Source: Porticoccus sp. W117
Lineage (GTDB): Bacteria; Pseudomonadota; Gammaproteobacteria; Pseudomonadales; Porticoccaceae
Length of the DNA stretch: 64,000 nucleotides
Direction of reading: 5' to 3'
Assembly (NCBI RefSeq): GCF_030341905.1
Contig: NZ_JATAAF010000012.1
Location: 17,406-81,405, forward strand
A program made the translations under genes and the position numbers. The notes beneath the pieces are model-generated. The model saw only the letters and a program-made list of their open reading frames with translations. It searched no databases and had not been told where the DNA came from. Shown here piece by piece: positions 5,714 through 59,942 of this stretch. Position 1 is the stretch's first letter, and each line of letters starts with the position of its first letter.

Positions 5714-5739
5714 CGCTTGCTAGAGTAAGGTCGAATAGT

Positions 5740-5777
5740 GGCAGGGGGTGCGTTACACTTCCTGCCCTGTTTTTTTA
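5740..5777 (+). terminator. intrinsic terminator after leuB
   Basis: Hairpin ggcagg...cctgcc followed by a T7 run. Confidence 0.6.
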
Positions 5778-5821
5778 GGCGGTCAACAGATCGCCATTGA
5801 GATGTAATAAAGAGAAGTGCG

Positions 5822-7957: not shown

Positions 7958-8022
7958 AAATGCGCCCCACGCCCGCAATGGCCGGGGCGCCAACACAATA
8001 ATGTAGATAGGACTATCACATC

Positions 8023-47941: not shown

Positions 47942-49081
47942 ATGCAGGACGCTTATATCACCGGAGTTGGCCGCTTCTTACCTGGCCCGACTATCAGCAA
48001 TAAAGAAGTAGAAGATTATATTGGCTGTATTCATGGTCAGCCCTCTGCTTTCAGAGCAGCCACTCTTCGCAAAAACGGCATCAAGACTCGCCACTACGCT
48101 GTCGATATTGAAGGTAATCACCTTTATACCAATGCTCAAATGGCTGCCGAAGCGATACGTGCAGCAGCGGCGAACGCCAAGCACGATGTAGCCTCTTTGC
48201 AACTACTGGCTACCAGTACAACTCAGGGTGATTTATTGGTGCCTGGGTTTGCCAGTGCTGTGCATGGTGAATTGGGCATACCGCCGCTAGAGCTAGCATC
48301 CTTCCAAAGTGTATGCGCTAGTAGCATGATGGCTATTAAAAACGCTTACCTGAATATCAGGTCTGGCGATAAACAAACAGCCGCTGCTTGTGGCAGTGAG
48401 TTTTCAAGCCGCTGGTTTCGCCCTGGCTTTTATGAATCTTGTGTTGCAGAGGAAGAGGCTCGCAAGCCGCCCATCGATCTGGATTTCTTGCGCTGGACAT
48501 TGTCCGATGGTGCTGGTGCTTTATTTATAGAGCCCAACCCCAAATCGGATGGAGTGTCCTTACGCTGTGACTGGATTGACCTTCAATCGTTTGCTGATCG
48601 CTTCGATCCTTGTATGTACGCTGGCTCCAGTAGCAATGTGCCAGGGGAAAATTTACCTTGGAGCCATTATGCCTCACCGCAGGAAGCTTACCAAGCAGGC
48701 GCGATGGCACTGAGACAGGATTTTGAATTGCTCTATAAAATGTTCCCGGTGTGGCTTGGGTACTACCTGAGTCTGATGGACAAACACGGCTTTAATCCAG
48801 AAAGCATTGACTATTACTTACCTCATTACTCGGCCAAATCCTTGGGCGAAGAGATGAAAAAACTGATGAAGAGCGCTGGGGCTATGATTCCGGAGGAGCG
48901 TTGGTTTAATAATCTAACCACTGTAGGTAATACCGGCTCGGCTTCGATTTTTTTGATGTTGGAAGAACTCTTGCGCGAACAAGATCTACAGCCGGGTCAG
49001 ACTATTCTTTGTTTCGTGCCAGAAAGCGGCCGTTGTATAGCCTCATTTATGCACCTCACTGTTGTCACCAACAAGGACTAA
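47942..49081 (+). CDS. 3-oxoacyl-ACP synthase III (FabH)-like condensing enzyme / acyltransferase
   Basis: N-terminal ITGVGRFLPGPTISNKE, candidate Cys-His-Asn triad (QSVCASSMMA, HYSAK, VGNTGSASI). AT-richer than upstream genes. Confidence 0.75.
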   Translation: MQDAYITGVGRFLPGPTISNKEVEDYIGCIHGQPSAFRAATLRKNGIKTRHYAVDIEGNHLYTNAQMAAEAIRAAAANAKHDVASLQLLATSTTQGDLLVPGFASAVHGELGIPPLELASFQSVCASSMMAIKNAYLNIRSGDKQTAAACGSEFSSRWFRPGFYESCVAEEEARKPPIDLDFLRWTLSDGAGALFIEPNPKSDGVSLRCDWIDLQSFADRFDPCMYAGSSSNVPGENLPWSHYASPQEAYQAGAMALRQDFELLYKMFPVWLGYYLSLMDKHGFNPESIDYYLPHYSAKSLGEEMKKLMKSAGAMIPEERWFNNLTTVGNTGSASIFLMLEELLREQDLQPGQTILCFVPESGRCIASFMHLTVVTNKD

Positions 49082-49087
49082 CCAGAT

Positions 49088-49774
49088 ATGGAAATGAAAT
49101 CCTCTAAAACAGCGGCACAAGCTGTAATGCGTCAACTCATAATCACATGGACCGATTTTGAAAGTCGCCTCCTGAAAGTGCCTATTATCGAGCGCATTAT
49201 GCGCGATCAATTACAGCTGGAAGATTATCGCCAAATCCTGCTAAACCATCGTCAGCAGGTTATAGAAGGCAGTCGTTGGATCGCCCGAGCCTCCTCTTCT
49301 ATTGATAATCGCTACCCGGAACTACGCTCTACTTTTATTCGTCATGCCAATACTGAGCATCGCGATTATCAGATGTTGGACGCAAATTACTTGTCAGTAG
49401 GTGGCGACGTAGAGACGTTGGCCAACAGTGAAAAGAATATAGGTAGTGAAGCCTTGTCTGCGTGGATGTTTCACCAAGCCAGTCAGCCCAATCCATTCGA
49501 CCTGTTAGGCGCAATGTTCATTATCGAGGGATTGGGAAAACAGTTTGCCCGCACCTTCGCTCAGAAAATTCAGAAACAATTGAGACTGAGCGATGATCAA
49601 GTGAGTTTCTACCTATACCATGCTGATCACGACGAAGAGCATATTGGTGAACTGGAAGATGCGCTGCAAAGCGGTATTCTCAGCGATGATGGCTTAGCCG
49701 GCCGCATTGCCAAGACCGCGCGGGTAACCGCCAGGCTTTATCTGTTGCAGTTGGAAGAACTGGGGAACTACTGA
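49088..49774 (+). CDS. heme-oxygenase-like fold protein, probable diiron oxidase (CADD/PqqC/TenA superfamily)
   Basis: 228 aa. Candidate metal ligands E...H (ANTEHRDYQ), E (IIEGLGKQF) and H-x3-D-x2-H (YHADHDEEH) spaced as in CADD-type enzymes. AAGGA RBS 6 nt after the KAS-III stop. Confidence 0.6.
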   Translation: MEMKSSKTAAQAVMRQLIITWTDFESRLLKVPIIERIMRDQLQLEDYRQILLNHRQQVIEGSRWIARASSSIDNRYPELRSTFIRHANTEHRDYQMLDANYLSVGGDVETLANSEKNIGSEALSAWMFHQASQPNPFDLLGAMFIIEGLGKQFARTFAQKIQKQLRLSDDQVSFYLYHADHDEEHIGELEDALQSGILSDDGLAGRIAKTARVTARLYLLQLEELGNY

Positions 49775-50634
49775 TGAGTTGGTCTGACGATTTCGACAAT
49801 CAAACCATCAATACAAAAGACCCTAATCCTTGGCTGGCACTCTATCTGGATGGCAGTTTGCCTATGCACGATCCTGCCAAGCAGGCGCTGCTGCGTGGTC
49901 ACAATACTTGGACCCGACGACTGCTTCTGCCCATTGTTCGTCCGCTTGCGCGGCTAAATATTATTTTGGTGCAACTTCTTCGAGTCATTTTGCCCGAGCG
50001 TTGTAGTTCTTCGCGGATATTGCACAAAACCATCTATTGGGGATTGAAAACTTTCGTCCGAAACGATGCCAATTACCTAATTTTGAGGCACTTCCATATC
50101 GGCACGGAGATACTGGGTTTTATTGCTGATAACGCCAAGGTCACCATCGAGAGTACCGAACCCCTGCGTCCCAATAATTTGGAAGGTTTAATCGAGGATA
50201 CCTTCCTGATTCACGATCTGAATATATTCAACTTTATTTTGGAGTTAAATCACAAGCTGAAGGAAGAGGGGCGGGATCTGACAGCTCCCGAACACCTTAA
50301 TTTGGGTTCTATTACCGATGGCGAGTTTGATATTGAGTTACCTAAAGAGAAGGCATTCAATGTGTTGGACTTACAGACAGCTATTGAAATGTATACGCCT
50401 TTGTACGCGCTGTTTCTATCCGATCGAGACTTCTGGCGTGCTAGTAATTCTTTACAGCTGGATGAAACGATTGCCATTTACATCGGTAAAATACTGAATG
50501 ATGCCATACCATTGGGTTTGGTGAATAATCGGCATCCGTCAGTACCTGTGTCGACTTTACAGGCGGGATTTCGGTTGATGCTGCATGGCTTGGATGCAGA
50601 GATTCTGCATGGATACCTGAGGAGTTTGAAATAA
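49774..50634 (+). CDS. hypothetical protein (286 aa), translationally coupled to the upstream gene (TGATG overlap)
   Basis: Stop/start overlap with the diiron-oxidase gene. No motif I recognise. Confidence 0.55.
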   Translation: MSWSDDFDNQTINTKDPNPWLALYLDGSLPMHDPAKQALLRGHNTWTRRLLLPIVRPLARLNIILVQLLRVILPERCSSSRILHKTIYWGLKTFVRNDANYLILRHFHIGTEILGFIADNAKVTIESTEPLRPNNLEGLIEDTFLIHDLNIFNFILELNHKLKEEGRDLTAPEHLNLGSITDGEFDIELPKEKAFNVLDLQTAIEMYTPLYALFLSDRDFWRASNSLQLDETIAIYIGKILNDAIPLGLVNNRHPSVPVSTLQAGFRLMLHGLDAEILHGYLRSLK

Positions 50635-50685: not shown

Positions 50686-51312
50686 CTAGTCTCCCCCACA
50701 GCTACCACATGAGCTGCTGCAACCTCCACCACAGCGACCGTCTTTACCACCACCTTTACCACCGAAGCTGGCAAACAAAAATCGCAGAGCCAAAAAGCCC
50801 ACGACACACCAAAACCCTATTTCTAACCAACTGGTGCTTTGATCCCCACTTTCTGCAAAGGCAGTCGCTACGGTTCCTGCTAACGCTGCGGGTACAAACC
50901 ACTTCAGTATGTGACTCTTATTATTTGGCTTTGAATTCCATACTAATTGTGGCGGCTCTTTGCCAAATTCGGCTCGATAAAGGGCAAGGGTTTTCTCGAA
51001 TTGCATTTGCATCTGAGTATCTGAGGGAGTGTGATGCAGCTCGGCTCCAAGTATTTCTGAGCAAAACCGACCCCAGTAGGATTTAGTGAATGTCAGGTGT
51101 AAATGCCATACAAGATCAATCGCAGGGGAGGGTGAAACCATACCTTGCTGCAAGGTGGCCAGATAGCAAAATCGCTTGTATTCATCTACTACCTCTAGAC
51201 AGTGATTATGCTTCCAGCCAGTTTCTTGCTTTAGCTTGGTGATAAATAAATCATATTGCCGATCAGCAATTTTGTGATTACGAAGCCGATTCCATAGTTC
51301 TTGATTTGTCAT
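50686..51312 (-). CDS. DUF1399-like domain membrane protein with C-terminal Gly/Cys-rich tail
   Basis: 208 aa. N-terminal ~140-aa domain with IDLVWHLHLTFTKSYWGRFC (reminiscent of the plant/bacterial glycine-rich-domain protein family). One TM helix (WLEIGFWCVVGFLALRFLFASF). Tail GGKGGGKDGRCGGGCSSSCGSCGGD. ATGA start/stop overlap with the upstream NTase gene. Confidence 0.6.
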   Translation of the reverse strand: MTNQELWNRLRNHKIADRQYDLFITKLKQETGWKHNHCLEVVDEYKRFCYLATLQQGMVSPSPAIDLVWHLHLTFTKSYWGRFCSEILGAELHHTPSDTQMQMQFEKTLALYRAEFGKEPPQLVWNSKPNNKSHILKWFVPAALAGTVATAFAESGDQSTSWLEIGFWCVVGFLALRFLFASFGGKGGGKDGRCGGGCSSSCGSCGGD

Positions 51313-52106
51313 GCTACCCCCAATACTGAATGAAACAACTCGTTCAAATCTGACATATCAGGCCTAAGCATTGCCTTATCCAAATCAAGGTTGCTCAAAC
51401 GCTCAATCTCCGATTCCACATAATCATTGAGCGCCTTGATGGCGGGTACAAGCTCTTTTTCGGTGCTGGCTTGTTTGCGTTTCAAAAGAGCAGTTATCTC
51501 CCGATCAAGTTCTGATCCGTCAGGCACTAGCTTGCGCAGCCGATCAAATTCGATGGGCGGAGGTTCGCGGTACTCTTCTAACCAGCGGACAGAGAGCAGG
51601 GGGCGCAGCACATAGAAGTACTTTTTCAGGGGTACGATTTCTGCTTGCAAGTAACCACGGTAGTTGGTTTTGGCCATACTGCGATAATGATAGATGCCTT
51701 TTTCAACAGAGTATCCCCGGCTAAGCAAACTTCTGGCTTGTTCAGCAAAGTGGCCATCATCTACGTACACAATAGGTGATTGGAGCCACTCCACAAACGA
51801 GGGGTTAGACTTGCTGAAAAGCCTCAGTGCTTTGCGAACATCCCAGCCATTGATGTCTATTTCGTCGACTATCTCGTATTCGATCACATCCCGTTTATCT
51901 TCCAGATCTACAGCCACATACCAATCTTTTGGGTGCGCGTAGATAAAGCGAACATCAAAGTCGCTGTTTTGTGAGGCGAACCCCCAGGCTCTGCTGCCGG
52001 ATTCCACAGCGTACAGAATTTTGACGCTGTGTTCTTTTTCGGCGGCGCGTATTCGTCGCAGGATTTCTGCTCGGGTTTCTTTAGGTATCACATGTTCCAT
52101 CATCAT
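51309..52106 (-). CDS. Pol-beta-superfamily nucleotidyltransferase (RlaP/PF10127-like)
   Basis: GS-x9-DxD NTase motif in ILYAVESGSRAWGFASQNSDFDVRFIY. 265 aa. Confidence 0.7.
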   Translation of the reverse strand: MMMEHVIPKETRAEILRRIRAAEKEHSVKILYAVESGSRAWGFASQNSDFDVRFIYAHPKDWYVAVDLEDKRDVIEYEIVDEIDINGWDVRKALRLFSKSNPSFVEWLQSPIVYVDDGHFAEQARSLLSRGYSVEKGIYHYRSMAKTNYRGYLQAEIVPLKKYFYVLRPLLSVRWLEEYREPPPIEFDRLRKLVPDGSELDREITALLKRKQASTEKELVPAIKALNDYVESEIERLSNLDLDKAMLRPDMSDLNELFHSVLGVA

Positions 52107-52163: not shown

Positions 52164-53312
52164 TTAGCTGTTGGGAGACAACTTGACCATATCATTCAGC
52201 ACGCTATCGAGACCACCGTAAACGGAGATCTTGTCGATGCGGCCGGTGACACGCTCCAGTGCTTCCAGTTCTTTCAAACGCAGCAGCATTGGGTTGTTTT
52301 CCATCAGCTTGGCGGTGTTATGCAGGGAGCGCATCGCCTGAGTCTCCTCGCGACGCTTGATCAGGTTGGCTTCAGACTCTTTTTGAGCCTCTACAACCTG
52401 ATTCAGAATTTCCTTCATATCACCGGGCAAGATAATGTCTTTTACACCAACGCTTGCCAGTTCAATTCCGTACTCGGTCAGCTTGCTGCGAATACCGTCT
52501 GCAATGGCGACGTTCAAGCTGTCTTTGTCTTCCAGCAAGTTATCCAGCGTCTGGGTTCCTACCGCTTCGCGAAGGTGCAGTTGCAGCTCGCGATAGACAA
52601 AGTTGGCGAAGTCGTTCAGCTTGAGTGCAACGATCTTGGGGTCGATCACCCGGTAGCTACCGCTTAGGTTTACCCGCAAGCTGACACGGTCTTTGGTCAG
52701 GATTTCCTGGCCGCTGACTTCGATCGCTTGCAAGCGCAAATCCAGCAGTTTGACGGCTACTGAGCGGTTGTACCTCCAGTAACCGTAGCTTCCTGGCTGC
52801 AGCAGCTCCTGAAACTTGCCATTAACGGTCAGAAGACCCACGTGCTCGTCGGGTACCTCCACATAGTTGATGGCGTTGGAGGCGTTGCGGCTTTTGCCAA
52901 TGGCCAAACCGCGGCCCAGCAACTTCAGCAGTTTGCTATCAATGGCAAACTTTTCGCTGATATCGATCACATCAATACGCACGTCTTCGATTCCCTTCCA
53001 TACGGCAAGGAAGGTGCCTGGTGCAAGAATATCCACCAGGTGACCATCGCGGTAGAACAGGCCTACCTGCATATCGGTCAGCTCAAAGCGGTCAATAAAA
53101 CCATTCAGCTTTTCGGCCTGAGTATTGAGCAGGAACTTGGCTTTGGCGTGGTCAAAAACAATGTTAGTGGCATCGTATTTTTCCAGGCGAGTTTTGCCAG
53201 CCAATGCGTTAATGCGATGGCGGCCGGGCTCAAGTACTCGGTCCAGCCGGTTGCGCCGGTACAGTAATGCCCGCTCGTTATCGGCGATATCTACAGTATT
53301 CCATAACATCAT
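52164..53312 (-). CDS. SPFH/band-7 (stomatin/prohibitin/flotillin-like) domain protein
   Basis: 382 aa. SPFH-like core (ILTKDRVSLRVNLSGSYRVIDPKIVALKLND) and a coiled-coil C-terminal region. No NfeD partner gene adjacent. Confidence 0.7.
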   Translation of the reverse strand: MMLWNTVDIADNERALLYRRNRLDRVLEPGRHRINALAGKTRLEKYDATNIVFDHAKAKFLLNTQAEKLNGFIDRFELTDMQVGLFYRDGHLVDILAPGTFLAVWKGIEDVRIDVIDISEKFAIDSKLLKLLGRGLAIGKSRNASNAINYVEVPDEHVGLLTVNGKFQELLQPGSYGYWRYNRSVAVKLLDLRLQAIEVSGQEILTKDRVSLRVNLSGSYRVIDPKIVALKLNDFANFVYRELQLHLREAVGTQTLDNLLEDKDSLNVAIADGIRSKLTEYGIELASVGVKDIILPGDMKEILNQVVEAQKESEANLIKRREETQAMRSLHNTAKLMENNPMLLRLKELEALERVTGRIDKISVYGGLDSVLNDMVKLSPNS

Positions 53313-53640
53313 TTTTCTCTCCTTTCTCTTGTTGTTCTTTAGGTTACAAATAAAGCGAGGCTCACCCGAAAACCCTGGGGCTGACAGCTTGATCTGCAGT
53401 GGGTGGCGGGTCAGTGGTTTGCGAATATCTGGTTCATTGCGCCTTTGTGTTAACTACTGCGCGCGTAAAACCCGTATTCAGCAAACTTGACCAGACACCG
53501 TCTACAAACTCCCCTGATAGCGGCAGTGAGATCGGCGTTCCAGTTTGTCAATTCTCTCGTTTGATCCAAAATTCGAATCAAACGATTGATGTCAAACATT
53601 CCAGAACCATGAGCCTCTGGTAGATTTATTTAGCAAGGAC

Positions 53641-53690
53641 CTGAACCTTGTGGGGACTCGAACCCCGGGCCTCTCGGCCTTACCTTTTTG
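53641..53690 (-). other. tRNA 3'-fragment-like element (variable-arm-like hairpin GGCCGAGAGGCC + T-arm-like GGGGTTCGAGTCCCC) immediately 3' of tRNA-Met
   Basis: Minus-strand reading. There is no 5' half. Possible att remnant or degenerate tRNA. Confidence 0.35.
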
Positions 53691-53706
53691 TCGTGTTTCA
53701 GACGAC

Positions 53707-53782
53707 TGGTACTTTGGCAGGATTCGAACCTGCGCCCGATCGATTATGAGTCGATTGCTCTACCCAACTGAGCTACAAAGTC
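53707..53782 (-). tRNA. tRNA with CAU anticodon (Met elongator or Ile2-lysidine type)
   Basis: Cloverleaf with D-arm GCTCAGTTGGGTAGAGC, anticodon loop CTCATAA, T-arm GCAGGTTCGAATCCTGC. By my reading the 1:72 pair is G:A and CCA is not cleanly encoded. Confidence 0.65.
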
Positions 53783-53912
53783 GGTGTTTAGGCCGGTTAT
53801 CAAATTGGTACACAACACATGAAGCATGCTTGTGCCAGGCCGATAATCAGAATCGGCTCCGCTAATTTGAATAACAGTTCCCAAACCTTGTTGTGACAGA
53901 CCGCTTATTGCA

Positions 53913-54476
53913 TTAAGCAGCCTGCCAGCATCTTTGCCCGGTAAACCGAGCTTGCAGGTACTCCATTTGATCGCCGCGAATGCGACGGTTTGCCAAGTAC
54001 ATAAACTCAAATACATTTGGCTCAAAGGGAATAGCCAGCAATTCCATACCTGCCTGCTCCGGTGTGCGGCCACCTTTGTGGCTATTGCAACGGGCGCAGG
54101 CGGCAACCACGTTTACCCAGACATCCGGGCCTCCTTGCACACGGGGCACAATGTGATCTCGGGTCAGTACCCGATCATCAAACTGCTGTCCGCAGTACAT
54201 ACAGCGGTGGCCGTCGCGGCGAAACAGCAGGCGATTGCTCAATGCCGGTATAAAGGCTCTTTTCCCTATGTCACCCTCGCAGGCAATAATGGGGGCAAGC
54301 AGCAAAGACGAGCGCTCACCATGGCTATTGATGCCACCGTTAATACGGTAGTGGTCTTCGCCCAGGCTCCACAGCACTTGCTCTTTCACATACAGAACCA
54401 CAGCCTCTTCAGGGGTAACCCATGATTGAGGCAGACCTGTTTTGTTCAGCCTTAGAATGCTGTTTTGCATTGCCAT
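53913..54476 (-). CDS. HNH endonuclease
   Basis: HNH motif HRCMYCGQQF...TRDHIVPRVQGG...AACARCNSHKG. Start MAMQNS at 54476 with a GGAGAAGGAGA RBS. Embedded in the tRNA array. Confidence 0.8.
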   Translation of the reverse strand: MAMQNSILRLNKTGLPQSWVTPEEAVVLYVKEQVLWSLGEDHYRINGGINSHGERSSLLLAPIIACEGDIGKRAFIPALSNRLLFRRDGHRCMYCGQQFDDRVLTRDHIVPRVQGGPDVWVNVVAACARCNSHKGGRTPEQAGMELLAIPFEPNVFEFMYLANRRIRGDQMEYLQARFTGQRCWQAA

Positions 54477-54518
54477 TTTTCTCTCCTTCTCCAATATCGT
54501 GCTCGGCATTGAGCACTA

Positions 54519-54600
54519 ACACCCGATGCAGGAATCGAACCTGCCACCTTCAGCGCCGCTGACCAAAGTTCCACTCCTGTAGAGCTTTTTAATCAGCTGG
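54519..54600 (-). other. degenerate tRNA-like region (good T-arm GCAGGTTCGATTCCTGC but no complete cloverleaf)
   Basis: Several short hairpins and T-arm-like motifs on both strands. Possible pseudo-tRNA. Confidence 0.3.
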
Positions 54601-54614
54601 ACTGGTCGAGTCCG

Positions 54615-54689
54615 TGGTTGGGGCAGTGGGAGTCGAACCCACCTATGCCGGCTTAAAAGGCCGGTGCACAACCGCTATGCCATACCCCA
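54615..54689 (-). tRNA. tRNA with UUU anticodon (nominally Lys) on a Gln-like body
   Basis: TGGGGTATGGCATAGCGG...CACCGG-CCTTTTAAG-CCGGCAT...GGTTCGACTCC...TGCCCCA-A-CCA. Body matches tRNA-Gln conventions (U1:A72, G2-G4), but loop CUUUUAA and discriminator A73 are Lys-type. Confidence 0.6.
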
Positions 54690-54704
54690 AAAAATCATTA
54701 ACAT

Positions 54705-54778
54705 TGGCTGCGGTGCCTGGAATCGAACCAGGGATATCGGAGTCAAAGTCCGATGCGTTACCATTACGCTACACCGCA
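54705..54778 (-). tRNA. tRNA-Gln (UUG)
   Basis: TGCGGTGTAGCGTAATGGTAACGCATCGGACTTTGACTCCGA...CCTGGTTCGATTCCAGG. U1:A72, anticodon loop CUUUGAC. Confidence 0.8.
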
Positions 54779-54793
54779 TATTTCCTGTGCATT

Positions 54794-54867
54794 TGGGGTG
54801 GCGCCGGGGATCGAACCCTGGTCTCCTGGTTCACAGCCAGGCACTCTGCCACTGAGCTAACACCACC
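54794..54867 (-). tRNA. tRNA-His (GUG) with extra 5' G
   Basis: GGTGGTGTTAGCTCAGTGGCAGAGTGCCTGGCTGTGAACCAGG...GGTTCGATCCCCGGCGCCACCCCA. Confidence 0.85.
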
Positions 54868-54889
54868 GTAGCAACACTTATTTCTAAAT

Positions 54890-55037
54890 TGGTGCCCCAT
54901 CTTGGAGTGACTCGAGCCATCCATGGCTCTCGGGCTGCGCCCGCCTGCGGCGCCCAAATTTGCTCTCCTGCAAATTTGTCGAACCAAGAACCTCCAGAAT
55001 CTAAATCTGGCGCCTCTTCCAATTGGGCCAATGGGGC
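54890..55037 (-). ncRNA. aberrant 148-nt tRNA-like gene: tRNA-type acceptor (GCCCCAT...ATGGGGC-A-CCA), D-arm and anticodon arm (loop TTTAGAT, anticodon UAG) but about 90 nt of extra hairpins where the T-arm should be
   Basis: Read from the minus strand. The termini pair perfectly and end in ACCA. The interior has three hairpins (AAATTTGC/GCAAATTT, a GC-rich stem, GAGCC/GGCTC) instead of a canonical T-arm. Confidence 0.4.
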
Positions 55038-55052
55038 AAATAATTAATTATT

Positions 55053-55127
55053 TGGCTGGCCTGGCAGGACTCGAACCTGCGATATTCCGGTTAACAGCCG
55101 GACGCTTTACCACTCAGCTACAGGCCA
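55053..55127 (-). tRNA. tRNA-Asn (GUU)
   Basis: TGGCCTGTAGCTGAGTGGTAAAGCGTCCGGCTGTTAACCGGA...GCAGGTTCGAGTCCTGCCAGGCCAGCCA. Confidence 0.85.
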
Positions 55128-55140
55128 ACAGCTTTTAAAA

Positions 55141-55183
55141 ACACTAAAAAATAAAACCCCGACTGGGGCTGCCAGACGGGGTT
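55141..55183 (-). terminator. intrinsic terminator (minus-strand sense) insulating the tRNA array from rtcBA readthrough
   Basis: aaccccg...cggggtt hairpin. On the minus strand it is followed by TTTTATTTTTTAGTGTTTTT. Confidence 0.6.
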
Positions 55184-55798
55184 TCGAAATTGCTTTCTAC
55201 TGATCCGAATGGCGTAGCCATTCGGAACTTCCGAAGACTACTTCATTGTTGTTTCTCCTGACCTTCTGCCATTGAGTGAGCCAGAAAATTACGTTGTTTA
55301 TGAGAGAAGAGGGGGCTTACATAGTTTTTGGGCGCATCTTCCCTCTGCCCACTTATCTGCGGGCACAGTTCATTAAAATTCGAAAGTTGTTCTGTCCAAT
55401 TACTCAGCAAGCTATTCTCCTCACTGTTCTCATCATTTTCTTTCGGGTACTAAAAAGCCCGGATCAGTTACCTCGTAAAGAGGTGGCCTGCCGGGCTTTA
55501 CAATAAAATATCATTTCATTGTAAACCTGAAAGGCCAGTTAGCCTTCCAGGTTGAAAGCTAACTAATACGCTACGTTCAGGTGTTCACGATCTAACCCAG
55601 CACACATTGGCTGGCTATTTTTAAATTGCACTATATTTTGGTCGCAACTATCCTGGCACAGTATCGAGCTGTGCTTGGGAAGTGTGTTGTAGATAAAGTC
55701 TATCTTCATTGCGACGATTAAAAATTCAAAAAATATAATTTGGTTGGCAATAATAATCTTCAAAAATATTATGTCAATCAATTTCCGAATTTTAAAAA

Positions 55799-56815
55799 CT
55801 ATTTATCGACAAAAACTTCCCAGTAATCTTTTTTCAGCTCTTTAAGCGAGATGTTTACTCCTGTCATTTGTTTAATCACATCAATATTTGTCAGCAAGTG
55901 CTGACTTGGTTGTAGAGTACGAAAGCATCCTCCATTACCTAATGCCATAGGCAATACCAGTTGATCGGCCAAGTGCTCACCCACTGGTACATCTGCTTCC
56001 AGATAACGCTTCATATCCTTCATCGCTCGCCCGGCAACTCGCTCTGCACTGACATGCCGTTCGCCAACAGATTCAAACACTTCCGTAACTGCTTCTGATG
56101 CAACTTGCAACGATAGTAAGTTGCCAGGGCCTGCGGAGTTAACCAGTTTTTGCGTCAACTCTGATTCGCTCCAGTAGCATTTCTTTTGCACTTGAGCCAA
56201 CTCGCGTTCTGTCACATGCTCTGGCACGCGCGCAGATATGGCGACAGCTTTTCGCTTAATAATTTCGCCTCGCTTGACCAAATCCAGAGACTTGACTCCC
56301 TTGGTTGGTTGTATTCGGGCTTTCCAAAATCCGCCGCCTGCCGGGTAAAAACCGTATCGCTCTAGTTCCACCTCAACATGGCAACCCATTTTATTTATGA
56401 TTGGTAAAAAGCACCGTTCAATAAACTCGAAGCTCGGTGCCATACCGTTATGGGTTCCACCCTCCAGAGTTAATTCGCTAATATCATCAGCAAGAAGCAG
56501 GGGTAGTAGCACCGTCTGGAATACCAACGTCGTACTGCCCGCCGAGCCAATCGCAAAATGGTAGCTGCCTGATTTAACCTTTCCGGGTTCAAACGTCACC
56601 CTGGATGATCCCATTGCATCACCACTGACCTGAGCATTGCAAATGCCCTGAGCAGCCCGCAAGCAGGTTAAATGCTGGCGCAATAATCCCGGCTTGTTTC
56701 TGCCTGCCCGAATATTCTCAATGCAGACCGACTTGCCAAGGCACATGGCCAGGGTCAACGAGGTTCTGAATATTTGCCCTCCACCTTCGCCTTGAGAGCC
56801 GTCGATAGTGATCAT
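55799..56815 (-). CDS. rtcA: RNA 3'-terminal phosphate cyclase
   Basis: MITIDGSQGEGGGQIFRTSLTLAMCLGKSVCIENIRAGRNKPGLLRQHLT aligns with E. coli RtcA. 338 aa. Confidence 0.93.
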   Translation of the reverse strand: MITIDGSQGEGGGQIFRTSLTLAMCLGKSVCIENIRAGRNKPGLLRQHLTCLRAAQGICNAQVSGDAMGSSRVTFEPGKVKSGSYHFAIGSAGSTTLVFQTVLLPLLLADDISELTLEGGTHNGMAPSFEFIERCFLPIINKMGCHVEVELERYGFYPAGGGFWKARIQPTKGVKSLDLVKRGEIIKRKAVAISARVPEHVTERELAQVQKKCYWSESELTQKLVNSAGPGNLLSLQVASEAVTEVFESVGERHVSAERVAGRAMKDMKRYLEADVPVGEHLADQLVLPMALGNGGCFRTLQPSQHLLTNIDVIKQMTGVNISLKELKKDYWEVFVDK

Positions 56816-56910: not shown

Positions 56911-58137
56911 TTAACCTTTCACGCAGACGACTTGCTTCAGCGTGTAAACCACTTCTACCAAGTCCTTTTGCGCTGCCATCACTTTTTCGATGGGCTTGTA
57001 CGCAGAAGGGGTCTCATCGATTACACCTTGGTCCTTACGGCATTCCACATCCGCTGTGGCCAAGCAATGCTCTTCCAGTGAAACCAGTTTCTTGGCTTGT
57101 GTACGAGACATCACTCGTCCGGCGCCGTGGCTGCAGCTGCAAAAGCTCTCTTCGTTACCCAGGCCGCGAACTATGAAAGACTTTGCTCCCATGCTGCCGG
57201 GAATAATGCCCATCTCACCTTCGCGGGCTCGTACCGCGCCTTTGCGAGTGACCAATACGTTTTTGCCGTAGTGGTTTTCGCGGGAGACGTAGTTATGGTG
57301 GCAGTTCACTGCTTCCATACGCGCCTCAAAGTTGATTTTCATGGTATCGCGCACGGCTTTAATGACTCGGGCCATCATTACCTCGCGGTTCAGCCGGGCA
57401 AATTCCTGCGCCCATTCCACCGCTTCCACATACTGATCAAAGTGCTCAGTGCCTTCCGGCAGGTAAGCCAGATCAGAATCCGGCAGATGGATATGCCAGC
57501 GTTCCATGTCTTTTTTAGCCATCTCGATAAAGTGCGTACCAATACGGTTACCCACTCCGCGAGAGCCGCTATGGAGCATTAACCAAACTGCATCGTGCTC
57601 GTCCAGACACATCTCAATAAAGTGATTGCCGGTACCCAACGTACCCAGGTGGTTCAGGTTATTGGTGTTTTTCAGCACACGGTGCTTTTCTTGCAGCACA
57701 TCGAACTGGCCTGCCAGTTGTGCCCAGGCAGTCATTACGTCGTCCGGCGCATTAGTCCAGGCACCTTTATCCCGGTTGCCTCGGGCGCGAGCAGAACGAC
57801 CGTGAGGTACAGCTTTCTCAATCGCTGAGCGAATACCCGCCAGGTTATCCGGCAGCTGGGAAGCGGTAAGGCTGGTGCGAACCGCCATCATTCCGCAACC
57901 AATATCCACACCCACTGCAGCGGGGATTACTGCGCCCAATGTGGGCACTACGCTACCGATAGTCGCGCCTTTACCCAGGTGCACATCGGGCATGGCCGCT
58001 ACCCACCTATGAATAAAGGGCATACGGGAAATGTTTTTCAGCTGATCTTTGGCCTTATCTTCAAAAGGTACGCCCACAGTCCAGGACTTGATAGGTACGC
58101 CACCATCCTGCATCACTTCGTAAGTTTGTTCATTCAT
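56911..58137 (-). CDS. rtcB: RNA-splicing ligase RtcB
   Basis: 408 aa, near-full-length identity to E. coli RtcB (MPDVHLGKGATIGSV, GTGNHFIE, C-terminal HGAGRVMSRT...VVCVKG). Confidence 0.95.
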   Translation of the reverse strand: MNEQTYEVMQDGGVPIKSWTVGVPFEDKAKDQLKNISRMPFIHRWVAAMPDVHLGKGATIGSVVPTLGAVIPAAVGVDIGCGMMAVRTSLTASQLPDNLAGIRSAIEKAVPHGRSARARGNRDKGAWTNAPDDVMTAWAQLAGQFDVLQEKHRVLKNTNNLNHLGTLGTGNHFIEMCLDEHDAVWLMLHSGSRGVGNRIGTHFIEMAKKDMERWHIHLPDSDLAYLPEGTEHFDQYVEAVEWAQEFARLNREVMMARVIKAVRDTMKINFEARMEAVNCHHNYVSRENHYGKNVLVTRKGAVRAREGEMGIIPGSMGAKSFIVRGLGNEESFCSCSHGAGRVMSRTQAKKLVSLEEHCLATADVECRKDQGVIDETPSAYKPIEKVMAAQKDLVEVVYTLKQVVCVKG

Positions 58138-58185: not shown

Positions 58186-58202
58186 AGCAAGGCGGGGGCC
58201 AA
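58186..58202 (-). promoter_or_regulatory. sigma-54 promoter of rtcBA (TTGGCCCCCGCCTTGCT = TGGC-N7-TTGC)
   Basis: GG and GC elements at the exact consensus spacing. About 45 bp upstream of the rtcB start. Divergent from rtcR. Confidence 0.75.
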
Positions 58203-58346: not shown

Positions 58347-59942
58347 ATGAGAACAGTAGCGATCAGTATTCTTGGGACTATCCTGGACCGGCGCGGCAAG
58401 AGAGAAAAGCGCTGGGACAAGTGGCGTCCCACCGTTTCCATGTGCCAACACGAAGATATGGTTATCGACCGGCTGGAGTTGTTATTTGATAACCACTCAA
58501 AACGCCTCGCTGAGCAAGTTACCGAAGATGTGGCCAGGGTATCGCCGGAAACTGAGGTGGTTCATCACCTGGTTAACTTTAATGACCCCTGGGATTTTGA
58601 GACGGTTTACAGCACTTTGCTGGATTTCACTCGTGGCTATGATTTTCAGACCAGTGAAGAGCAGTACCTCACGCATATCACCACCGGTACGCACGTGGCA
58701 CAGATATGCCTGTATCTGCTGACTGAAGCTGGCTATCTGCCAGGAAAGCTGTTGCAAACATCGCCTGCTAAGCGTGGCAGCAATGCACCAGGGCAATATC
58801 AAATTATTGACCTGGACCTGTCGAAGTACGACCAAATAGCCTCGCGCTTTCAGAAAGAGCACCAAGAGGGCACCAGTTACTTGAAAGGTGGCATAGAGAC
58901 CAATAATACCGCCTTTAATAAAATGATTGCCCAGCTTGAGCAAGTGTCTATCCGTTCCAGTGAGCCTATATTGATTACCGGGCCAACGGGTGCCGGCAAG
59001 TCATGGCTTGCGCAGCGGGTTTATGATCTTCGTAAGCAGCGGGGTAAATTATTTGGTCCTTTGGTGGCCGTGAACTGCGCCACGTTACGTGGTGAAAATG
59101 CCATGTCAGCATTGTTTGGCCATAAGAAAGGCGCATTTACCGGTGCTACAGCGGACCGTCCTGGTTTGTTGATGGAGGCCAATAATGGATTGCTGTTTCT
59201 GGATGAGATCGGAGAGCTCGGGCTGGATGAGCAAGCTATGTTGCTCAGGGCTGTCGAAGACAGGCGCTTTATGCCGTTTGGCTCCGATAAAGAGGTCAGT
59301 AGCGACTTTCAGCTGATTGCGGGTACCAATAAAGATCTTATCCAACAGTGCCAGAAAGGGGCGTTTCGGGAAGATCTTCTTGCCCGCATTGACCTCTGGA
59401 CCTATCGACTGCCATCTCTGAACGAGCGAAAAGAGGATATAGAACCCAACCTGGAATACGAGTTGGAAAAATTCTCCACGAAATCGGGTTATCTGGTTAA
59501 GTTCAACAAAGCGGCCCGAGATAGATACCTATCATTTAGTCATTCTGCCGAAGCAGTTTGGTCGGCCAATTTTCGAGACCTCAACGCCAGTATTACCCGT
59601 ATGGGAACATTGGCTGATGGTGGTCGAGTTACTGTCGATCTGGTGGATGAGGAAATCATGCGCCTCAAGCGCAAGTGGCAGGTGGGAGCTCAAGATAGAG
59701 AAGGGCATGTTGAGATGATTGATAGCGTCTTGGGTGCTGGGTATGCCGCTACTATGGATTATTATGAGCAAATTCAGCTGGCAGCTCTTATCGAGGTGTG
59801 TAGATCATCCAGGTCAATGGCGGATGCTGGCAGAAAGCTCTTTAATGTAAGTAGGGCGGCTAAAAAATCTAGTAATGACTCCCACCGGGTCAAACAGCTG
59901 CTGGGAAAATACGATTTGGAGTTTGCTAACCTTGAATTGTAA
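58347..59942 (+). CDS. rtcR: sigma-54-dependent transcriptional regulator RtcR (CARF-like N-terminal domain + AAA+ + HTH)
   Basis: Colinear with E. coli RtcR: N-terminal VAISILGTILD...RWDKWRPTV...HITTGTHVAQIC, then GPTGAGKS and GAFTGA. Confidence 0.93.
   Translation: MRTVAISILGTILDRRGKREKRWDKWRPTVSMCQHEDMVIDRLELLFDNHSKRLAEQVTEDVARVSPETEVVHHLVNFNDPWDFETVYSTLLDFTRGYDFQTSEEQYLTHITTGTHVAQICLYLLTEAGYLPGKLLQTSPAKRGSNAPGQYQIIDLDLSKYDQIASRFQKEHQEGTSYLKGGIETNNTAFNKMIAQLEQVSIRSSEPILITGPTGAGKSWLAQRVYDLRKQRGKLFGPLVAVNCATLRGENAMSALFGHKKGAFTGATADRPGLLMEANNGLLFLDEIGELGLDEQAMLLRAVEDRRFMPFGSDKEVSSDFQLIAGTNKDLIQQCQKGAFREDLLARIDLWTYRLPSLNERKEDIEPNLEYELEKFSTKSGYLVKFNKAARDRYLSFSHSAEAVWSANFRDLNASITRMGTLADGGRVTVDLVDEEIMRLKRKWQVGAQDREGHVEMIDSVLGAGYAATMDYYEQIQLAALIEVCRSSRSMADAGRKLFNVSRAAKKSSNDSHRVKQLLGKYDLEFANLEL

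What the first reader, a model, noticed from the sequence alone, without database searches (positions are those of the whole stretch)
53641..55183. Minus-strand tRNA array with phage-array-like architecture beside the RtcB repair locus
About 1.5 kb holds tRNA-Met(CAU), tRNA-Lys-like(UUU), tRNA-Gln(UUG), tRNA-His(GUG) and tRNA-Asn(GUU). It also holds a degenerate tRNA-like stretch, a 148-nt aberrant tRNA-like gene and a tRNA 3' fragment. An HNH endonuclease gene sits inside the array, as homing HNH genes do in phage tRNA clusters. The isoacceptors are textbook targets of anticodon nucleases (PrrC/RloC-Lys, zymocin-type Lys/Gln, colicin E5-type His/Asn, VapC-type Met). The array is insulated by a terminator from rtcBA-rtcR, whose products heal and seal cleaved tRNAs. 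RtcR's CARF domain is known to respond to RNA-end signals. Spare tRNAs plus a ligase may be a counter-defence or tRNA-damage-tolerance island.
Basis: partly seen in the sequence, partly recalled or inferred. Interest (0 to 1): 0.62.

Follow-up and report, generated by a model that had tools for sequence, protein, structure and literature searches.

The report
Spare tRNAs inside an RNA-repair operon
This 1.5-kb stretch holds a short set of accessory tRNA genes with their usual HNH nuclease, followed by a tRNA-shaped non-coding RNA, and all of it lies inside a bacterial RNA-repair gene cluster (RtcB ligase, Band-7 protein, RlaP), joining two poorly understood systems in one locus.

Summary
There are five minus-strand tRNA genes, an HNH gene, three tRNA-like leftovers, a terminator, and rtcBA/rtcR.

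The segment is not one array beside the repair locus. It is two RNA modules inside an RtcR-type repair island: rtcR<>rtcB-rtcA ... Band-7-RlaP.

Module 1 is a reduced accessory array: Asn, a tRNA(UAG) split by a 71-nt T-loop insert, His, Gln, Lys and a T-arm remnant. It ends in an HNH protein of the family found beside the Anabaena trn operon, a Methylibium megaplasmid array and jumbo-phage tRNA clusters.

[quoted passage not shown] Here it is the middle of a ~310-nt composite ncRNA with covariation support. In 27 loci Band-7 always follows it, and 12 of the 27 anticodon loops are non-canonical, so it is probably not a decoder.

Arrays of three or more tRNAs occur only where the HNH gene is present.

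The "damage-tolerance island" idea is plausible and has a cyanobacterial precedent. The nuclease-target list and the "Met" reading are not supported. Expression, charging and redundancy of these tRNAs are untested. I rate it a new variant of known kinds, of moderate interest.

The parts
58347..59942 (+). rtcR, a sigma-54 activator with an RtcR/CARF-type N-terminal domain
   Evidence: Pfam RtcR 1.8e-84 plus Sigma54_activat. NCBIfam RNA_repair_RtcR equivalog, 778.9 bits against a cut-off of 650.
58186..58201 (-). sigma-54 promoter-like site TGGCCCCCGCCTTGCT, about 50 nt upstream of rtcB
   Evidence: One mismatch to TGGCAC-N5-TTGCW. The position fits RtcR control. Function is inferred.
56911..58137 (-). 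rtcB RNA ligase
   Evidence: Pfam RtcB 6.5e-133.
55799..56815 (-). rtcA RNA 3'-phosphate cyclase
   Evidence: Pfam RTC 1.1e-78. NCBIfam equivalog, 427 bits against a cut-off of 352.
55447..55777 (-). sRNA-like unit 1: conserved sigma-70-type promoter (TTGACA-16-TATTAT, 55750-55777), conserved hairpin TGGAAGGC..GCCTT(T/C)CAG, and terminator T1 (~55447-55497)
   Evidence: Best promoter match in the region, 11 of 12. Promoter, hairpin and terminator align in all 7 rtc-linked loci, including 3 without tRNAs (A4). No Rfam family.
   Evidence: Terminator scan. Conserved in the 7 loci.
55053..55127 (-). accessory tRNA-Asn(GUU), with G73 and encoded CCA
   Evidence: ARAGORN and Rfam, 74.8 bits. 89-91% identical to orthologues in L001, L002 and L004, but 71% to E. 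coli asnT.
54890..55037 (-). tRNA(UAG), Leu-type with a short variable loop, interrupted in the T-loop (after position 59) by a 71-nt three-hairpin insert at 54907-54977
   Evidence: In-silico excision gives a 77-nt cloverleaf that ARAGORN calls tRNA-Leu(tag). Best match is the 77-nt Leu(UAG) of the Agarilytica array, 45 of 60 over the best local alignment. The insert is unique in the window. No exact match to the exon-insert-exon pattern in metagenomes.
54795..54867 (-). accessory tRNA-His(GUG), with G-1 and C73 and encoded CCA
   Evidence: 89% identical to L002 and L004, 73% to E. coli hisR.
54705..54778 (-). accessory tRNA-Gln(UUG), with U1:A72, G73 and CCA
   Evidence: 95% identical to L001, 76% to E. 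coli glnU.
54615..54689 (-). accessory tRNA-Lys(UUU), with A73 and CCA; its body looks Gln-like
   Evidence: 97% identical to L001, 88% to L021, 78% to the Nostoc trn-operon Lys, 70% to E. coli lysT and 71% to glnU.
54510..54600 (-). tRNA remnant: only a T-arm (54528-54544) followed by a hairpin
   Evidence: Sequence. No tRNA model hit at E<=10. Not conserved in relatives.
53913..54476 (-). tRNA-array-associated HNH endonuclease, 187 aa: an N-terminal beta-rich domain plus an IscB/Cas9-type HNH domain
53786..53886 (-). structured 5' domain of the Band-7-associated ncRNA
   Evidence: A8 alifold gives 36 pairs, 16 with compensatory changes. Model R2 finds it in two loci not used to build it: L136 (97.7 bits, a locus with no HNH gene) and L021 (91.3 bits).
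   Evidence: One orthologous scaffold with variable anticodon loops (A1 and A7). Always just upstream of Band-7. Matches the b7a-tRNA prediction as cited in bioRxiv 10.1101/312249.
   Evidence: 19 pairs, 91.9% paired, 8 pairs with double changes, 0 of 500 shuffles reach the observed covariation. Model R1 scores 110 bits here. It finds the element in 3 of 3 new Band-7 loci and in 15 metagenome loci (excluding L148). No Rfam family.
52164..53312 (-). Band-7/SPFH (slipin) protein, 382 aa
   Evidence: Pfam Band_7 7e-33. Homologues are named slipin family protein.
51309..52106 (-). RlaP nucleotidyltransferase (RNA-ligase-associated Pol-beta)
   Evidence: Pfam RlaP 2.3e-86. Biochemistry described in PMC12776372.
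50686..51312 (-). 208-aa protein of unknown function; its stop overlaps the RlaP start
   Evidence: No Pfam or NCBIfam hit above cut-off; weak GRDP-like hit, E 0.0035. Its place in the operon is inferred from the 4-nt overlap.

Best explanation
The segment is a composite of two RNA modules nested in a horizontally acquired RNA-repair island under RtcR/sigma-54 control. The window matches Porticoccus sp. W117.

Module 1 is a reduced accessory tRNA array of the 'L-array' kind, together with its characteristic HNH endonuclease. It holds Asn, an interrupted tRNA(UAG), His, Gln, Lys and a remnant.

Module 2 is the Band-7-associated tRNA-like ncRNA. It has a structured 5' domain, the b7a-tRNA and a second tRNA-like element. 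It precedes the Band-7/SPFH gene and the RlaP nucleotidyltransferase gene.

Proposed working, all inferred: when anticodon nucleases or translational stress cut tRNAs, the 2',3'-cyclic-phosphate fragments activate RtcR, and RtcA/RtcB heal and seal the breaks. By analogy with Y RNA and Ro, the b7a ncRNA acts as an RNA cofactor or scaffold, or as a nuclease decoy, for Band-7, RlaP and RtcB. The four intact array tRNAs keep the main identity elements and an encoded CCA. They would supply divergent replacement or decoy tRNAs for the species most often targeted.

The HNH enzyme most likely acts on DNA and keeps or moves the array cassette. Arrays are seen only where it is present.
For: Shown:
- Gene identities.
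- The five tRNAs.
- The order rtcR<>rtcBA-sRNA units-[tRNAs]-HNH-b7a-Band-7 recurs in L001, L002 and L004, from three other families.
- The base state, rtcBA-b7a ncRNA-Band-7 with neither HNH nor array, occurs in Marinobacterium L136 and six metagenome loci.
- Expanded states carry 3-26 tRNAs plus HNH: Agarilytica L137 has 26, L021 has 13, L237 has 16.
- Arrays of three or more tRNAs occur in 12 of 20 HNH-containing b7a loci and 0 of 7 without HNH. In the independently sampled metagenome set the counts are 5 of 9 against 0 of 6.
- The HNH family sits next to arrays in Nostoc pCC7120delta, the Methylibium megaplasmid, Salicola phage SCTP-2, and 11 of 12 IMG/VR contigs checked.
- The relative order Asn<Leu(UAG)<Gln<Cys<Pro<Lys is shared by L137, L171, L004, L001 and the window where those genes are present (L021 shares Asn<Gln<Cys<Pro<Lys but has no Leu(UAG)). 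This fits descent from a long array by deletion.
- The array tRNAs are 89-97% identical between families but only 70-76% to E. coli cognates. They keep G73 (Asn, Gln), G-1/C73 (His), A73 (Lys) and CCA.
- The b7a ncRNA structure has covariation support, and both models find it in loci they were not built from.
- GC drops from about 0.55 to 0.39-0.55 from 48 kb onward.

From the literature:
- RtcR is activated by tRNA fragments ending in a cyclic phosphate (PMC7790460).
- The Anabaena trn array, its HNH gene all8564, rtcB and a slipin gene are co-regulated by TrcR under translational stress (PMC8421152, PMC10272220).
- b7a-tRNA and Band-7 have been predicted to be RtcB cofactors (Burroughs & Aravind 2016, as cited in 10.1101/312249).
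- RlaP adds nucleotides to cleaved tRNA ends (PMC12776372).
Against: - Two terminator-like hairpins and a separate sigma-70-type promoter lie between rtcA and the array. I found no promoter directly upstream of tRNA-Asn. Co-expression with rtcBA is therefore not shown.
- No whole-genome tRNA census was possible, so redundancy of these tRNAs in this genome is inferred from relatives only.
- Of the six tRNA-derived sequences upstream of the HNH gene, one is interrupted and one is a remnant, so the array may be decaying rather than in use.
- 72 of the 80 closest genomic HNH relatives have no tRNA nearby, so the protein is not strictly tied to arrays.
- Array content varies widely, which argues against a fixed set of nuclease targets.
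- No anticodon nuclease or known defence system was found among the eight flanking proteins screened.
- The paper that defines b7a-tRNA could not be read.
Confidence: 0.6

Rival explanations
1. The array plus HNH gene is a selfish mobile cassette that is now decaying. It happened to land next to the tRNA-like b7a gene, perhaps because the HNH enzyme homes to tRNA-like DNA. It contributes nothing to RNA repair.
For: - An interrupted tRNA, a T-arm remnant, a His 5' fragment in L001 and an aberrant Tyr-like element in L004.
- Strongly variable composition.
- The HNH domain is of the DNA-nicking IscB/Cas9/group-II-intron type.
- The family is common in phages and plasmids.
- The surrounding region has lower GC.
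Against: - The array+HNH cassette co-occurs with rtcB and/or Band-7 in distant lineages and in different arrangements (L036, L137, L202, L237).
- In Anabaena the unlinked genes are co-regulated (PMC10272220).
- The intact tRNAs are 89-97% conserved across families and keep their identity elements.
- The HNH protein is 60-82% conserved across genera, which is unlike typical homing endonucleases.
Confidence: 0.2
2. The tRNAs and the b7a ncRNA are baits rather than spares. Nucleases cleave them, and the cyclic-phosphate fragments switch on RtcR, or the RNAs soak up the nuclease. The variable b7a anticodon loop would track whichever nucleases a lineage meets.
For: - The b7a anticodon loop varies in sequence and length on an otherwise conserved scaffold.
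- RtcR senses tRNA fragments, and a decoy role has been proposed for YrlA (PMC7790460).
- A sponge role has been suggested for the Anabaena array tRNAs (PMC8421152).
Against: - Relaxed selection on a loop that has no role explains the variability equally well.
- There is no evidence of cleavage.
- In Salmonella, YrlA was not cleaved by the nuclease (PMC7790460).
Confidence: 0.12
3. This is an ordinary housekeeping tRNA operon, holding the genome's only copies, that happens to lie near rtcBA.
For: - All four intact array tRNAs have good cloverleaves, identity elements and CCA.
- No census of the genome was possible.
Against: - Relatives with the same synteny lack Gln and Lys (L002), lack an intact His (L001), or have no tRNAs at all (L007, L011, L018).
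- Identity to E. coli cognates is only 70-76%.
- Pseudo-tRNAs lie inside the array.
- The HNH family is typical of accessory arrays.
Confidence: 0.03
4. This is a prophage remnant whose tRNA cluster served phage codon usage.
For: The HNH protein matches phrog_16726 over residues 4-159, and full-length relatives lie in jumbo-phage tRNA clusters.
Against: - No phage structural or replication genes flank it. The neighbours are rtcBA, Band-7, RlaP and biosynthetic genes.
- The same layout is chromosomal in several families.
Confidence: 0.05

Closest known systems
Cyanobacterial long tRNA arrays ('L-arrays', the Anabaena PCC 7120 trn operon) with the conserved HNH gene all8564 and co-regulated rtcB (Santamaria-Gomez et al. 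2021, PMC8421152; TrcR regulon, PMC10272220)
   Same: - Same HNH protein family (35% identity, E 2e-17), placed directly next to the array.
- Accessory, divergent tRNAs.
- An association with rtcB and with a slipin/Band-7 gene.
- Related Cellvibrionales loci carry full-size arrays (26 tRNAs in L137).
   Different: - This array has only four intact tRNAs plus one interrupted gene, below the 20-gene definition of an array unit.
- It is chromosomal and physically inside the rtc cluster, not on a plasmid.
- The regulator here would be RtcR/sigma-54, not the TrcR repressor.
- The HNH gene lies at the 3' end of the array rather than upstream of it.
RtcB / Band-7 (SPFH) / b7a-tRNA / RlaP RNA-repair systems predicted by Burroughs & Aravind 2016 (NAR 44:8525; known to me through 10.1101/312249 and from memory of the abstract)
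   Same: RtcB, RtcA, RtcR, a Band-7 protein, a tRNA-like gene immediately upstream of Band-7, and RlaP are all present in this order.
   Different: - Here the tRNA-like gene is the middle of a longer composite RNA (5' domain + tRNA + second tRNA-like element).
- An HNH gene and an accessory tRNA array are inserted upstream of it.
- I could not check whether the original paper already described these extras.
Salmonella rsr-yrlBA-rtcBA operon (Ro60/Rsr with the tRNA-like Y RNA YrlA)
   Same: An RtcR-controlled rtcBA operon that also encodes tRNA-mimicking ncRNAs, which are proposed to be cofactors or decoys.
   Different: - No YrlA match: 16 bits against a gathering score of 69.
- No Y RNA at gathering threshold anywhere in the window.
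- No Rsr among the genes annotated.
- Band-7 takes the place of Ro.
Phage and plasmid tRNA clusters that counter tRNA-targeting defences (jumbo-phage arrays; mycobacterial tRNA array units regarded as putative anti-defence, PMC12803027)
   Same: Dense clusters of divergent tRNAs with embedded HNH genes. The proposed logic is the same: replace or out-compete cleaved host tRNAs.
   Different: The cluster sits in a cellular chromosome next to repair enzymes, so it would protect the cell rather than an invader. No nuclease resistance has been shown.

Membership tests
tRNA array unit / L-array | At least 20 tRNA genes at a density of at least 2 per kb (Tran et al. 2016 definition, PMC4758250 abstract) | tested here: not met
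   There are 4 intact tRNAs plus one interrupted gene in about 0.55 kb. The density criterion is met but the count is not. Relatives L137 (26 tRNAs) and L237 (16) are much larger.
tRNA array unit / L-array | A conserved HNH endonuclease gene adjacent to the array (PMC8421152) | tested here: met
   The window HNH protein aligns over 81% of its length at 35% identity (E 2e-17) with the HNH gene 200 nt from the Nostoc PCC 7120 trn operon.
tRNA array unit / L-array | The tRNAs are accessory, that is, additional to a housekeeping set | not testable with these tools
   Only 64 kb of the genome is available. Indirect support comes from presence/absence differences among syntenic relatives and 70-76% identity to E. 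coli cognates.
tRNA array unit / L-array | Silent under normal conditions and induced by translational stress | not testable with these tools
   This needs expression data.
RtcB / Band-7 / b7a-tRNA repair system (Burroughs & Aravind 2016) | An RtcB ligase gene in the same cluster as a Band-7/SPFH gene | tested here: met
   The pairing recurs in 18 of the 27 b7a loci.
RtcB / Band-7 / b7a-tRNA repair system (Burroughs & Aravind 2016) | A tRNA-like ncRNA gene immediately upstream of the Band-7 gene | tested here: met
   The tRNA at 53708-53782 and the TLE at 53603-53708 lie upstream of Band-7 (53312). The same arrangement holds in all 27 loci examined.
RtcB / Band-7 / b7a-tRNA repair system (Burroughs & Aravind 2016) | An associated RlaP nucleotidyltransferase | tested here: met
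   Pfam RlaP 2.3e-86, directly downstream of Band-7. The same pairing is seen in L236 and in the Citrobacter locus L139.
RtcR-regulated rtcBA operon | A divergent rtcR gene and a sigma-54 promoter upstream of rtcB | tested here: met
   RtcR equivalog. TGGCCCCCGCCTTGCT lies 50 nt upstream of rtcB. Promoter activity was not tested.
RtcR-regulated rtcBA operon | The tRNA array and the Band-7 module are transcribed from the RtcR-dependent promoter | tested here: inconclusive
   They are on the same strand with no opposing genes, but two terminator-like hairpins and a sigma-70-like promoter intervene. In Marinobacterium and Citrobacter the b7a/Band-7 module follows the promoter or rtcA directly.
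Y RNA (YrlA) / Rsr module | A match to the YrlA covariance model and an adjacent Ro60/Rsr gene | tested here: not met
   Best YrlA hit is 16 bits against a gathering score of 69, E=9. No Rsr among the annotated neighbours.
Decoding elongator or initiator tRNA-Met (for 53708-53782) | A conserved CAU anticodon in a canonical 7-nt loop with U33, a paired acceptor stem and a CCA end | tested here: not met
   Orthologues carry CAU (7), AAU (4), CAG (2), GAU (1), AUU (1) and 12 loops that lack U33 or have 5-6 nt. The window copy has a G1/A72 mismatch and no proper CCA.
Homing HNH endonuclease of phage tRNA clusters | Full-length homologues embedded in phage tRNA clusters | tested here: met
   Salicola phage SCTP-2 (43% identity, 94% coverage) and 11 of 12 IMG/VR contigs checked have tRNAs, and in some cases a tmRNA, within 6 kb.
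Homing HNH endonuclease of phage tRNA clusters | Sporadic, selfish distribution and DNA cleavage at a cognate empty site | tested here: inconclusive
   The family is 59-82% conserved across genera and is solo in 72 of 80 genomic loci. That pattern is unlike classic homing genes. Nuclease activity cannot be tested here.

The most novel reading that the evidence does not exclude
The Band-7-associated composite ncRNA (5' domain, tRNA body and second tRNA-like element) is a sentinel or decoy for anticodon nucleases. Its anticodon loop evolves quickly to match or absorb whichever nucleases a lineage meets. The HNH-linked tRNA arrays are mobile upgrade cassettes that plug in next to it. Together with RtcB, RtcA, RlaP and Band-7 they would form one transferable tRNA-damage immunity island that senses, buffers, repairs and replaces. 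This would unite the cyanobacterial L-array regulon and the Burroughs-Aravind Band-7 system in a single mechanism.
Probability: 0.12. Interest if true: 0.8.

Novelty: new variant of a known kind. Interest (0 to 1): 0.5.

Why it matters
Two puzzles in bacterial RNA biology have been studied apart. One is why some genomes carry extra tRNA arrays with a conserved HNH gene. The other is what the Band-7/tRNA-like-RNA partners of the RtcB ligase do.

This locus and its relatives place both in one gene cluster, in culturable marine gammaproteobacteria such as Microbulbifer, Agarilytica and Marinobacterium. Natural variants range from no array to 26 tRNAs.

That gives a direct genetic test bed for whether accessory tRNAs belong to a tRNA-damage response. 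It also gives a defined ~310-nt RNA, with covariance models, for testing the unvalidated b7a-tRNA prediction.

Tried and rejected
- Y RNA/YrlA reading of the tRNA-like pieces. Rejected: no significant Rfam match and no Rsr gene.
- The 148-nt element as a class-II tRNA with a long variable arm. Rejected: the extra 71 nt sit in the T-loop, and removing them restores a 77-nt cloverleaf.
- The 71-nt insert as a repeat or MITE. No second copy in the window and no exact match to the exon-insert-exon pattern in metagenomes. A bulge-helix-bulge reading of the junctions, done by eye only, is imperfect. I leave the insert unexplained.
- A second sigma-54 promoter upstream of the b7a-tRNA (TGGCACAAGCATGCTT). 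Rejected: the spacing is one base short, and the conserved bases fit an RNA helix with covariation instead.
- An anticodon nuclease or defence system nearby. PADLOC gave only domain-level HNH hits (PtuB, Cas9) and nothing for the neighbours.
- Whole-genome tRNA census.
- Reading Burroughs & Aravind 2016 directly. The paper is not held.
- Band-7 in phages. No match.

Full report
**1. What is in the sequence**

ARAGORN finds five tRNA genes in the 64-kb window. All are on the minus strand between 53708 and 55127: Met-CAU, Lys-UUU, Gln-UUG, His-GUG and Asn-GUU. Rfam at gathering threshold finds the same five and nothing else.

The ORF between them (53913-54509) is an HNH endonuclease. Its likely start is 54476, behind a GGAGAAGGAGAG ribosome-binding site.

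Upstream on the same strand lie rtcB and rtcA, with a divergent rtcR. A sigma-54-type promoter, TGGCCCCCGCCTTGCT, sits 50 nt before rtcB.

They are a Band-7/SPFH protein, an RlaP nucleotidyltransferase and a 208-aa unknown. The tRNA segment therefore lies inside an RNA-repair cluster.

The HNH protein is 100% identical to one from Porticoccus sp. W117. GC content falls from about 0.55 to 0.39-0.55 from 48 kb onward, which suggests an acquired region.

**2. The odd pieces**

- *The 148-nt gene (54890-55037).* It has a normal acceptor stem, D arm, anticodon arm (UAG) and CCA. A 71-nt three-hairpin insert (54907-54977) sits in the T-loop after position 59. Deleting it in silico gives a 77-nt cloverleaf that ARAGORN calls tRNA-Leu(tag). 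Its best match is the uninterrupted 77-nt Leu(UAG) of the Agarilytica array. The insert occurs once in the window, and the exon-insert-exon pattern has no exact match in the metagenome collection.
- *The "degenerate stretch".* This is only a T-arm remnant.
- *The "3' fragment".* This belongs to a conserved structured RNA, described in section 5.

**3. Synteny**

The HNH protein has 287 relatives among species-representative genomes. Most of the best 80 sit alone in unrelated contexts.

- Three other Cellvibrionales lineages share the window's layout, rtcR<>rtcB-rtcA-spacer-[tRNAs]-HNH-tRNA-Band-7. They are a Cellvibrionaceae MAG (L001), Microbulbifer (L002) and a Spongiibacteraceae MAG (L004).
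- Their tRNAs are orthologous to the window's at 89-97% identity.
- Their content differs. L001 has Asn, a His fragment, Gly, Gln, Pro and Lys. L002 has Asn, His and Gly. L004 has Asn, an aberrant Tyr-like element, His, Gln, Cys, Pro, Lys and Leu(UAG).
- Three further loci (L007, L011, L018) have rtcBA-spacer-HNH with no tRNAs.

Because Gln and Lys genes are missing from the Microbulbifer array, these cannot be that lineage's only copies. The window tRNAs are also just 70-76% identical to their E. coli cognates. They do retain G73 (Asn, Gln), G-1/C73 (His), A73 (Lys) and an encoded CCA, so they look chargeable.

**4. The HNH family marks accessory tRNA arrays**

By tblastn, the window protein matches the following:
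- The HNH gene next to the 24-26-gene trn operon on Nostoc/Anabaena PCC 7120 plasmid delta (35% identity, E 2e-17).
- An HNH gene at the end of a 27-tRNA array on the Methylibium PM1 megaplasmid.
- A gene inside the tRNA region of Salicola jumbo phage SCTP-2.

In IMG/VR, 11 of 12 contigs checked that carry relatives have tRNA clusters within 6 kb, and some have a tmRNA.

The literature already notes that an HNH gene is conserved next to cyanobacterial "L-arrays". It also notes that rtcB is a frequent neighbour and is co-induced by translational stress (PMC8421152). The TrcR regulon contains the trn operon, the HNH gene all8564, rtcB and a slipin (Band-7) gene (PMC10272220).

The HNH domain is of the IscB/Cas9/group-II-intron type. 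A DNA substrate is therefore more likely than RNA. The N-terminal domain gave no informative match.

**5. The "tRNA-Met" is the Band-7-associated tRNA**

The tRNA just after the HNH gene is one orthologous scaffold in all related loci. Its D arm, anticodon stem and T arm are near-invariant. Its anticodon loop varies between loci: CAU, AAU, AGU, CUU, GUU, AAA.

The YrlA structure preprint (10.1101/312249) cites Burroughs & Aravind 2016. [quoted passage not shown] The window gene fits it.

I find that this gene is the centre of a larger RNA.

- *Downstream element.* A 105-nt tRNA-like element lies at 53603-53708. It consists of a hairpin, a GG linker, a tetraloop hairpin, an invariant T-arm and a final hairpin. 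Of its cells, 91.9% are paired, 8 of 19 pairs show double changes, and 0 of 500 shuffles reach the observed covariation.
- *Upstream domain.* A ~100-nt multi-helix domain lies at ~53786-53886, with 36 pairs, 16 of them compensatory.
- *Tests on loci not used to build the models.* Model R1 recovered the downstream element in 3 of 3 newly fetched Band-7 loci: Marinobacterium, Agarilytica and an Alteromonadaceae genome. Model R2 recovered the upstream domain in L136 and L021.
- *More distant relatives.* A Granulosicoccus locus shows the same architecture with different sequence. Burkholderia and Subdoligranulum loci show tRNA-like signals upstream of Band-7, and the Citrobacter spacer shows only a degenerate T-arm-like stretch seen by eye, with no ARAGORN call and an insignificant R1 hit.
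- *Metagenome scan.* Scanning with two invariant motifs returned 16 genuine loci, one of them a duplicate of L001. All have Band-7 downstream, and 11 also have rtcB or rtcA.

Across 27 non-redundant loci the anticodon loops are CAU 7, AAU 4, CAG 2, GAU 1, AUU 1, and 12 that lack U33 or have only 5-6 nt. This RNA is very unlikely to decode. No Rfam family covers its flanking domains.

**6. How the two modules relate**

The base architecture is rtcR<>rtcBA-b7a ncRNA-Band-7(-RlaP). It occurs in Marinobacterium and six metagenome loci. Citrobacter has rtcR<>ncRNA-Band-7-RlaP.

The expanded architecture adds an HNH gene and 3-26 tRNAs, usually immediately upstream of the ncRNA.

- Arrays of three or more tRNAs occur in 12 of 20 HNH-containing b7a loci and in 0 of 7 loci without HNH.
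- In the metagenome set, which was not selected through HNH, the counts are 5 of 9 against 0 of 6.
- The relative order Asn<Leu(UAG)<Gln<Cys<Pro<Lys is shared by the window, L001, L004, L137 and L171 where those genes are present (L021 shares the order but has no Leu(UAG)).

The window array looks like a deletion-reduced version of a long array. Its interrupted and remnant genes fit that reading.

**7. Between rtcA and the array**

The 670-nt spacer is conserved in architecture in all seven rtc-HNH loci. It contains:
- a strong sigma-70-type promoter directly after rtcA;
- a conserved hairpin followed by terminator T1;
- a second conserved block followed by terminator T2.

These look like two small RNA genes. 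No promoter is evident between T2 and tRNA-Asn. How the array is transcribed, and whether RtcR controls it, remains open.

**8. Interpretation**

*Shown:* the composition of the segment, its conservation, the family links, and RNA structure supported by covariation.

*Inferred:* the island responds to tRNA damage. RtcR senses cyclic-phosphate tRNA fragments (PMC7790460), RtcA and RtcB repair the breaks, and RlaP may rebuild trimmed ends (PMC12776372). The b7a ncRNA with Band-7 would act as cofactor or decoy, and the accessory tRNAs would replace or buffer cleaved species.

*Main rival:* the array plus HNH is a decaying mobile cassette with no role in repair.

Its specific target list and its reading of the "Met" gene do not hold.

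**9. Novelty**

Both modules belong to kinds already described or predicted. The features I could not find described are:
- their physical fusion under an RtcR-type operon in Cellvibrionales;
- the restriction of arrays to loci that contain the HNH gene;
- the composite structure of the b7a RNA and its variable anticodon loop;
- the two sRNA-like units;
- the T-loop-interrupted tRNA.

One caveat applies. I could not read Burroughs & Aravind 2016, which may already cover some of this.

Noticed in passing
window 54907-54977 (-), inside the tRNA(UAG) gene at 54890-55037: A 71-nt three-hairpin insert sits exactly between T-loop positions 59 and 60, and removing it restores a canonical tRNA. That position is a common site of non-canonical archaeal tRNA introns, and the gene lies 2 kb from rtcB, the archaeal splicing ligase. 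By eye the junctions form only an imperfect bulge-helix-bulge. The insert is absent from the orthologous Leu(UAG) genes of relatives.
   Followed up: partly
window 55146-55777 (-): Two conserved sRNA-like units lie between rtcA and the array. They comprise a sigma-70 promoter TTGACA-16-TATTAT, a hairpin TGGAAGGC..GCCTTTCAG with terminator T1, and a second conserved block with terminator T2. They are shared by 7 rtc-HNH loci, including 3 without tRNAs, and have no Rfam family.
   Followed up: partly
window 53786-53886 (-) and 53603-53708 (-): The b7a-tRNA is flanked by a structured 5' domain and a second tRNA-like element. Both have covariation support, and covariance models R1 and R2 find them in loci they were not built from. 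Neither is in Rfam.
   Followed up: yes
L012, L013, L015, L136, L036, and metagenome loci L192, L194, L197, L202, L206, L237, L249: In these loci the b7a-tRNA anticodon loop lacks U33 or has only 5-6 nt, while the rest of the scaffold is conserved. The loop is either unconstrained or diversifying.
   Followed up: yes
L135 (Halieaceae chromosome), 8298-8744: In Halieaceae the HNH-b7a-Band-7 module has no rtc genes within 10 kb. It sits two genes downstream of a tadA-like tRNA adenosine deaminase gene. One Halieaceae b7a loop and the L001/L002 loops carry A34.
   Followed up: no
L139 (Citrobacter freundii plasmid), 4954-8907: An enterobacterial variant: rtcR is divergent from a sigma-54 promoter that drives a degenerate tRNA-like leader, Band-7 and RlaP, with no rtcBA in the operon.
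   Followed up: partly
L001 17061-18209, L002 14450-15562, L007 18009-19154, L011 13554-14708: A second, distant RtcB paralogue (24-26% identity) lies 4-8 kb downstream of the HNH gene in several relatives. It may be the PrfH-associated type. If so, the neighbourhood is a larger cluster of RNA-repair genes.
   Followed up: no
window 54615-54689 (-): The tRNA-Lys(UUU) has a body about as similar to E. coli tRNA-Gln (71%) as to tRNA-Lys (70%). It is 78% identical to the Lys gene of the Nostoc trn operon. This hints at shared ancestry of array tRNAs across phyla, or at an anticodon switch.
   Followed up: partly
window 47942-50634 (+): A DarB/StlD-type ketosynthase, a haem-oxygenase-like protein and a DUF6999 protein form a small biosynthetic cluster, possibly for a dialkylresorcinol. 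It abuts the repair island at the point where GC drops.
   Followed up: no
L093, L094, L105, L107 (IMG/VR jumbo-phage contigs): Phage tRNA clusters that carry this HNH family also encode a tmRNA directly upstream of the HNH gene.
   Followed up: no
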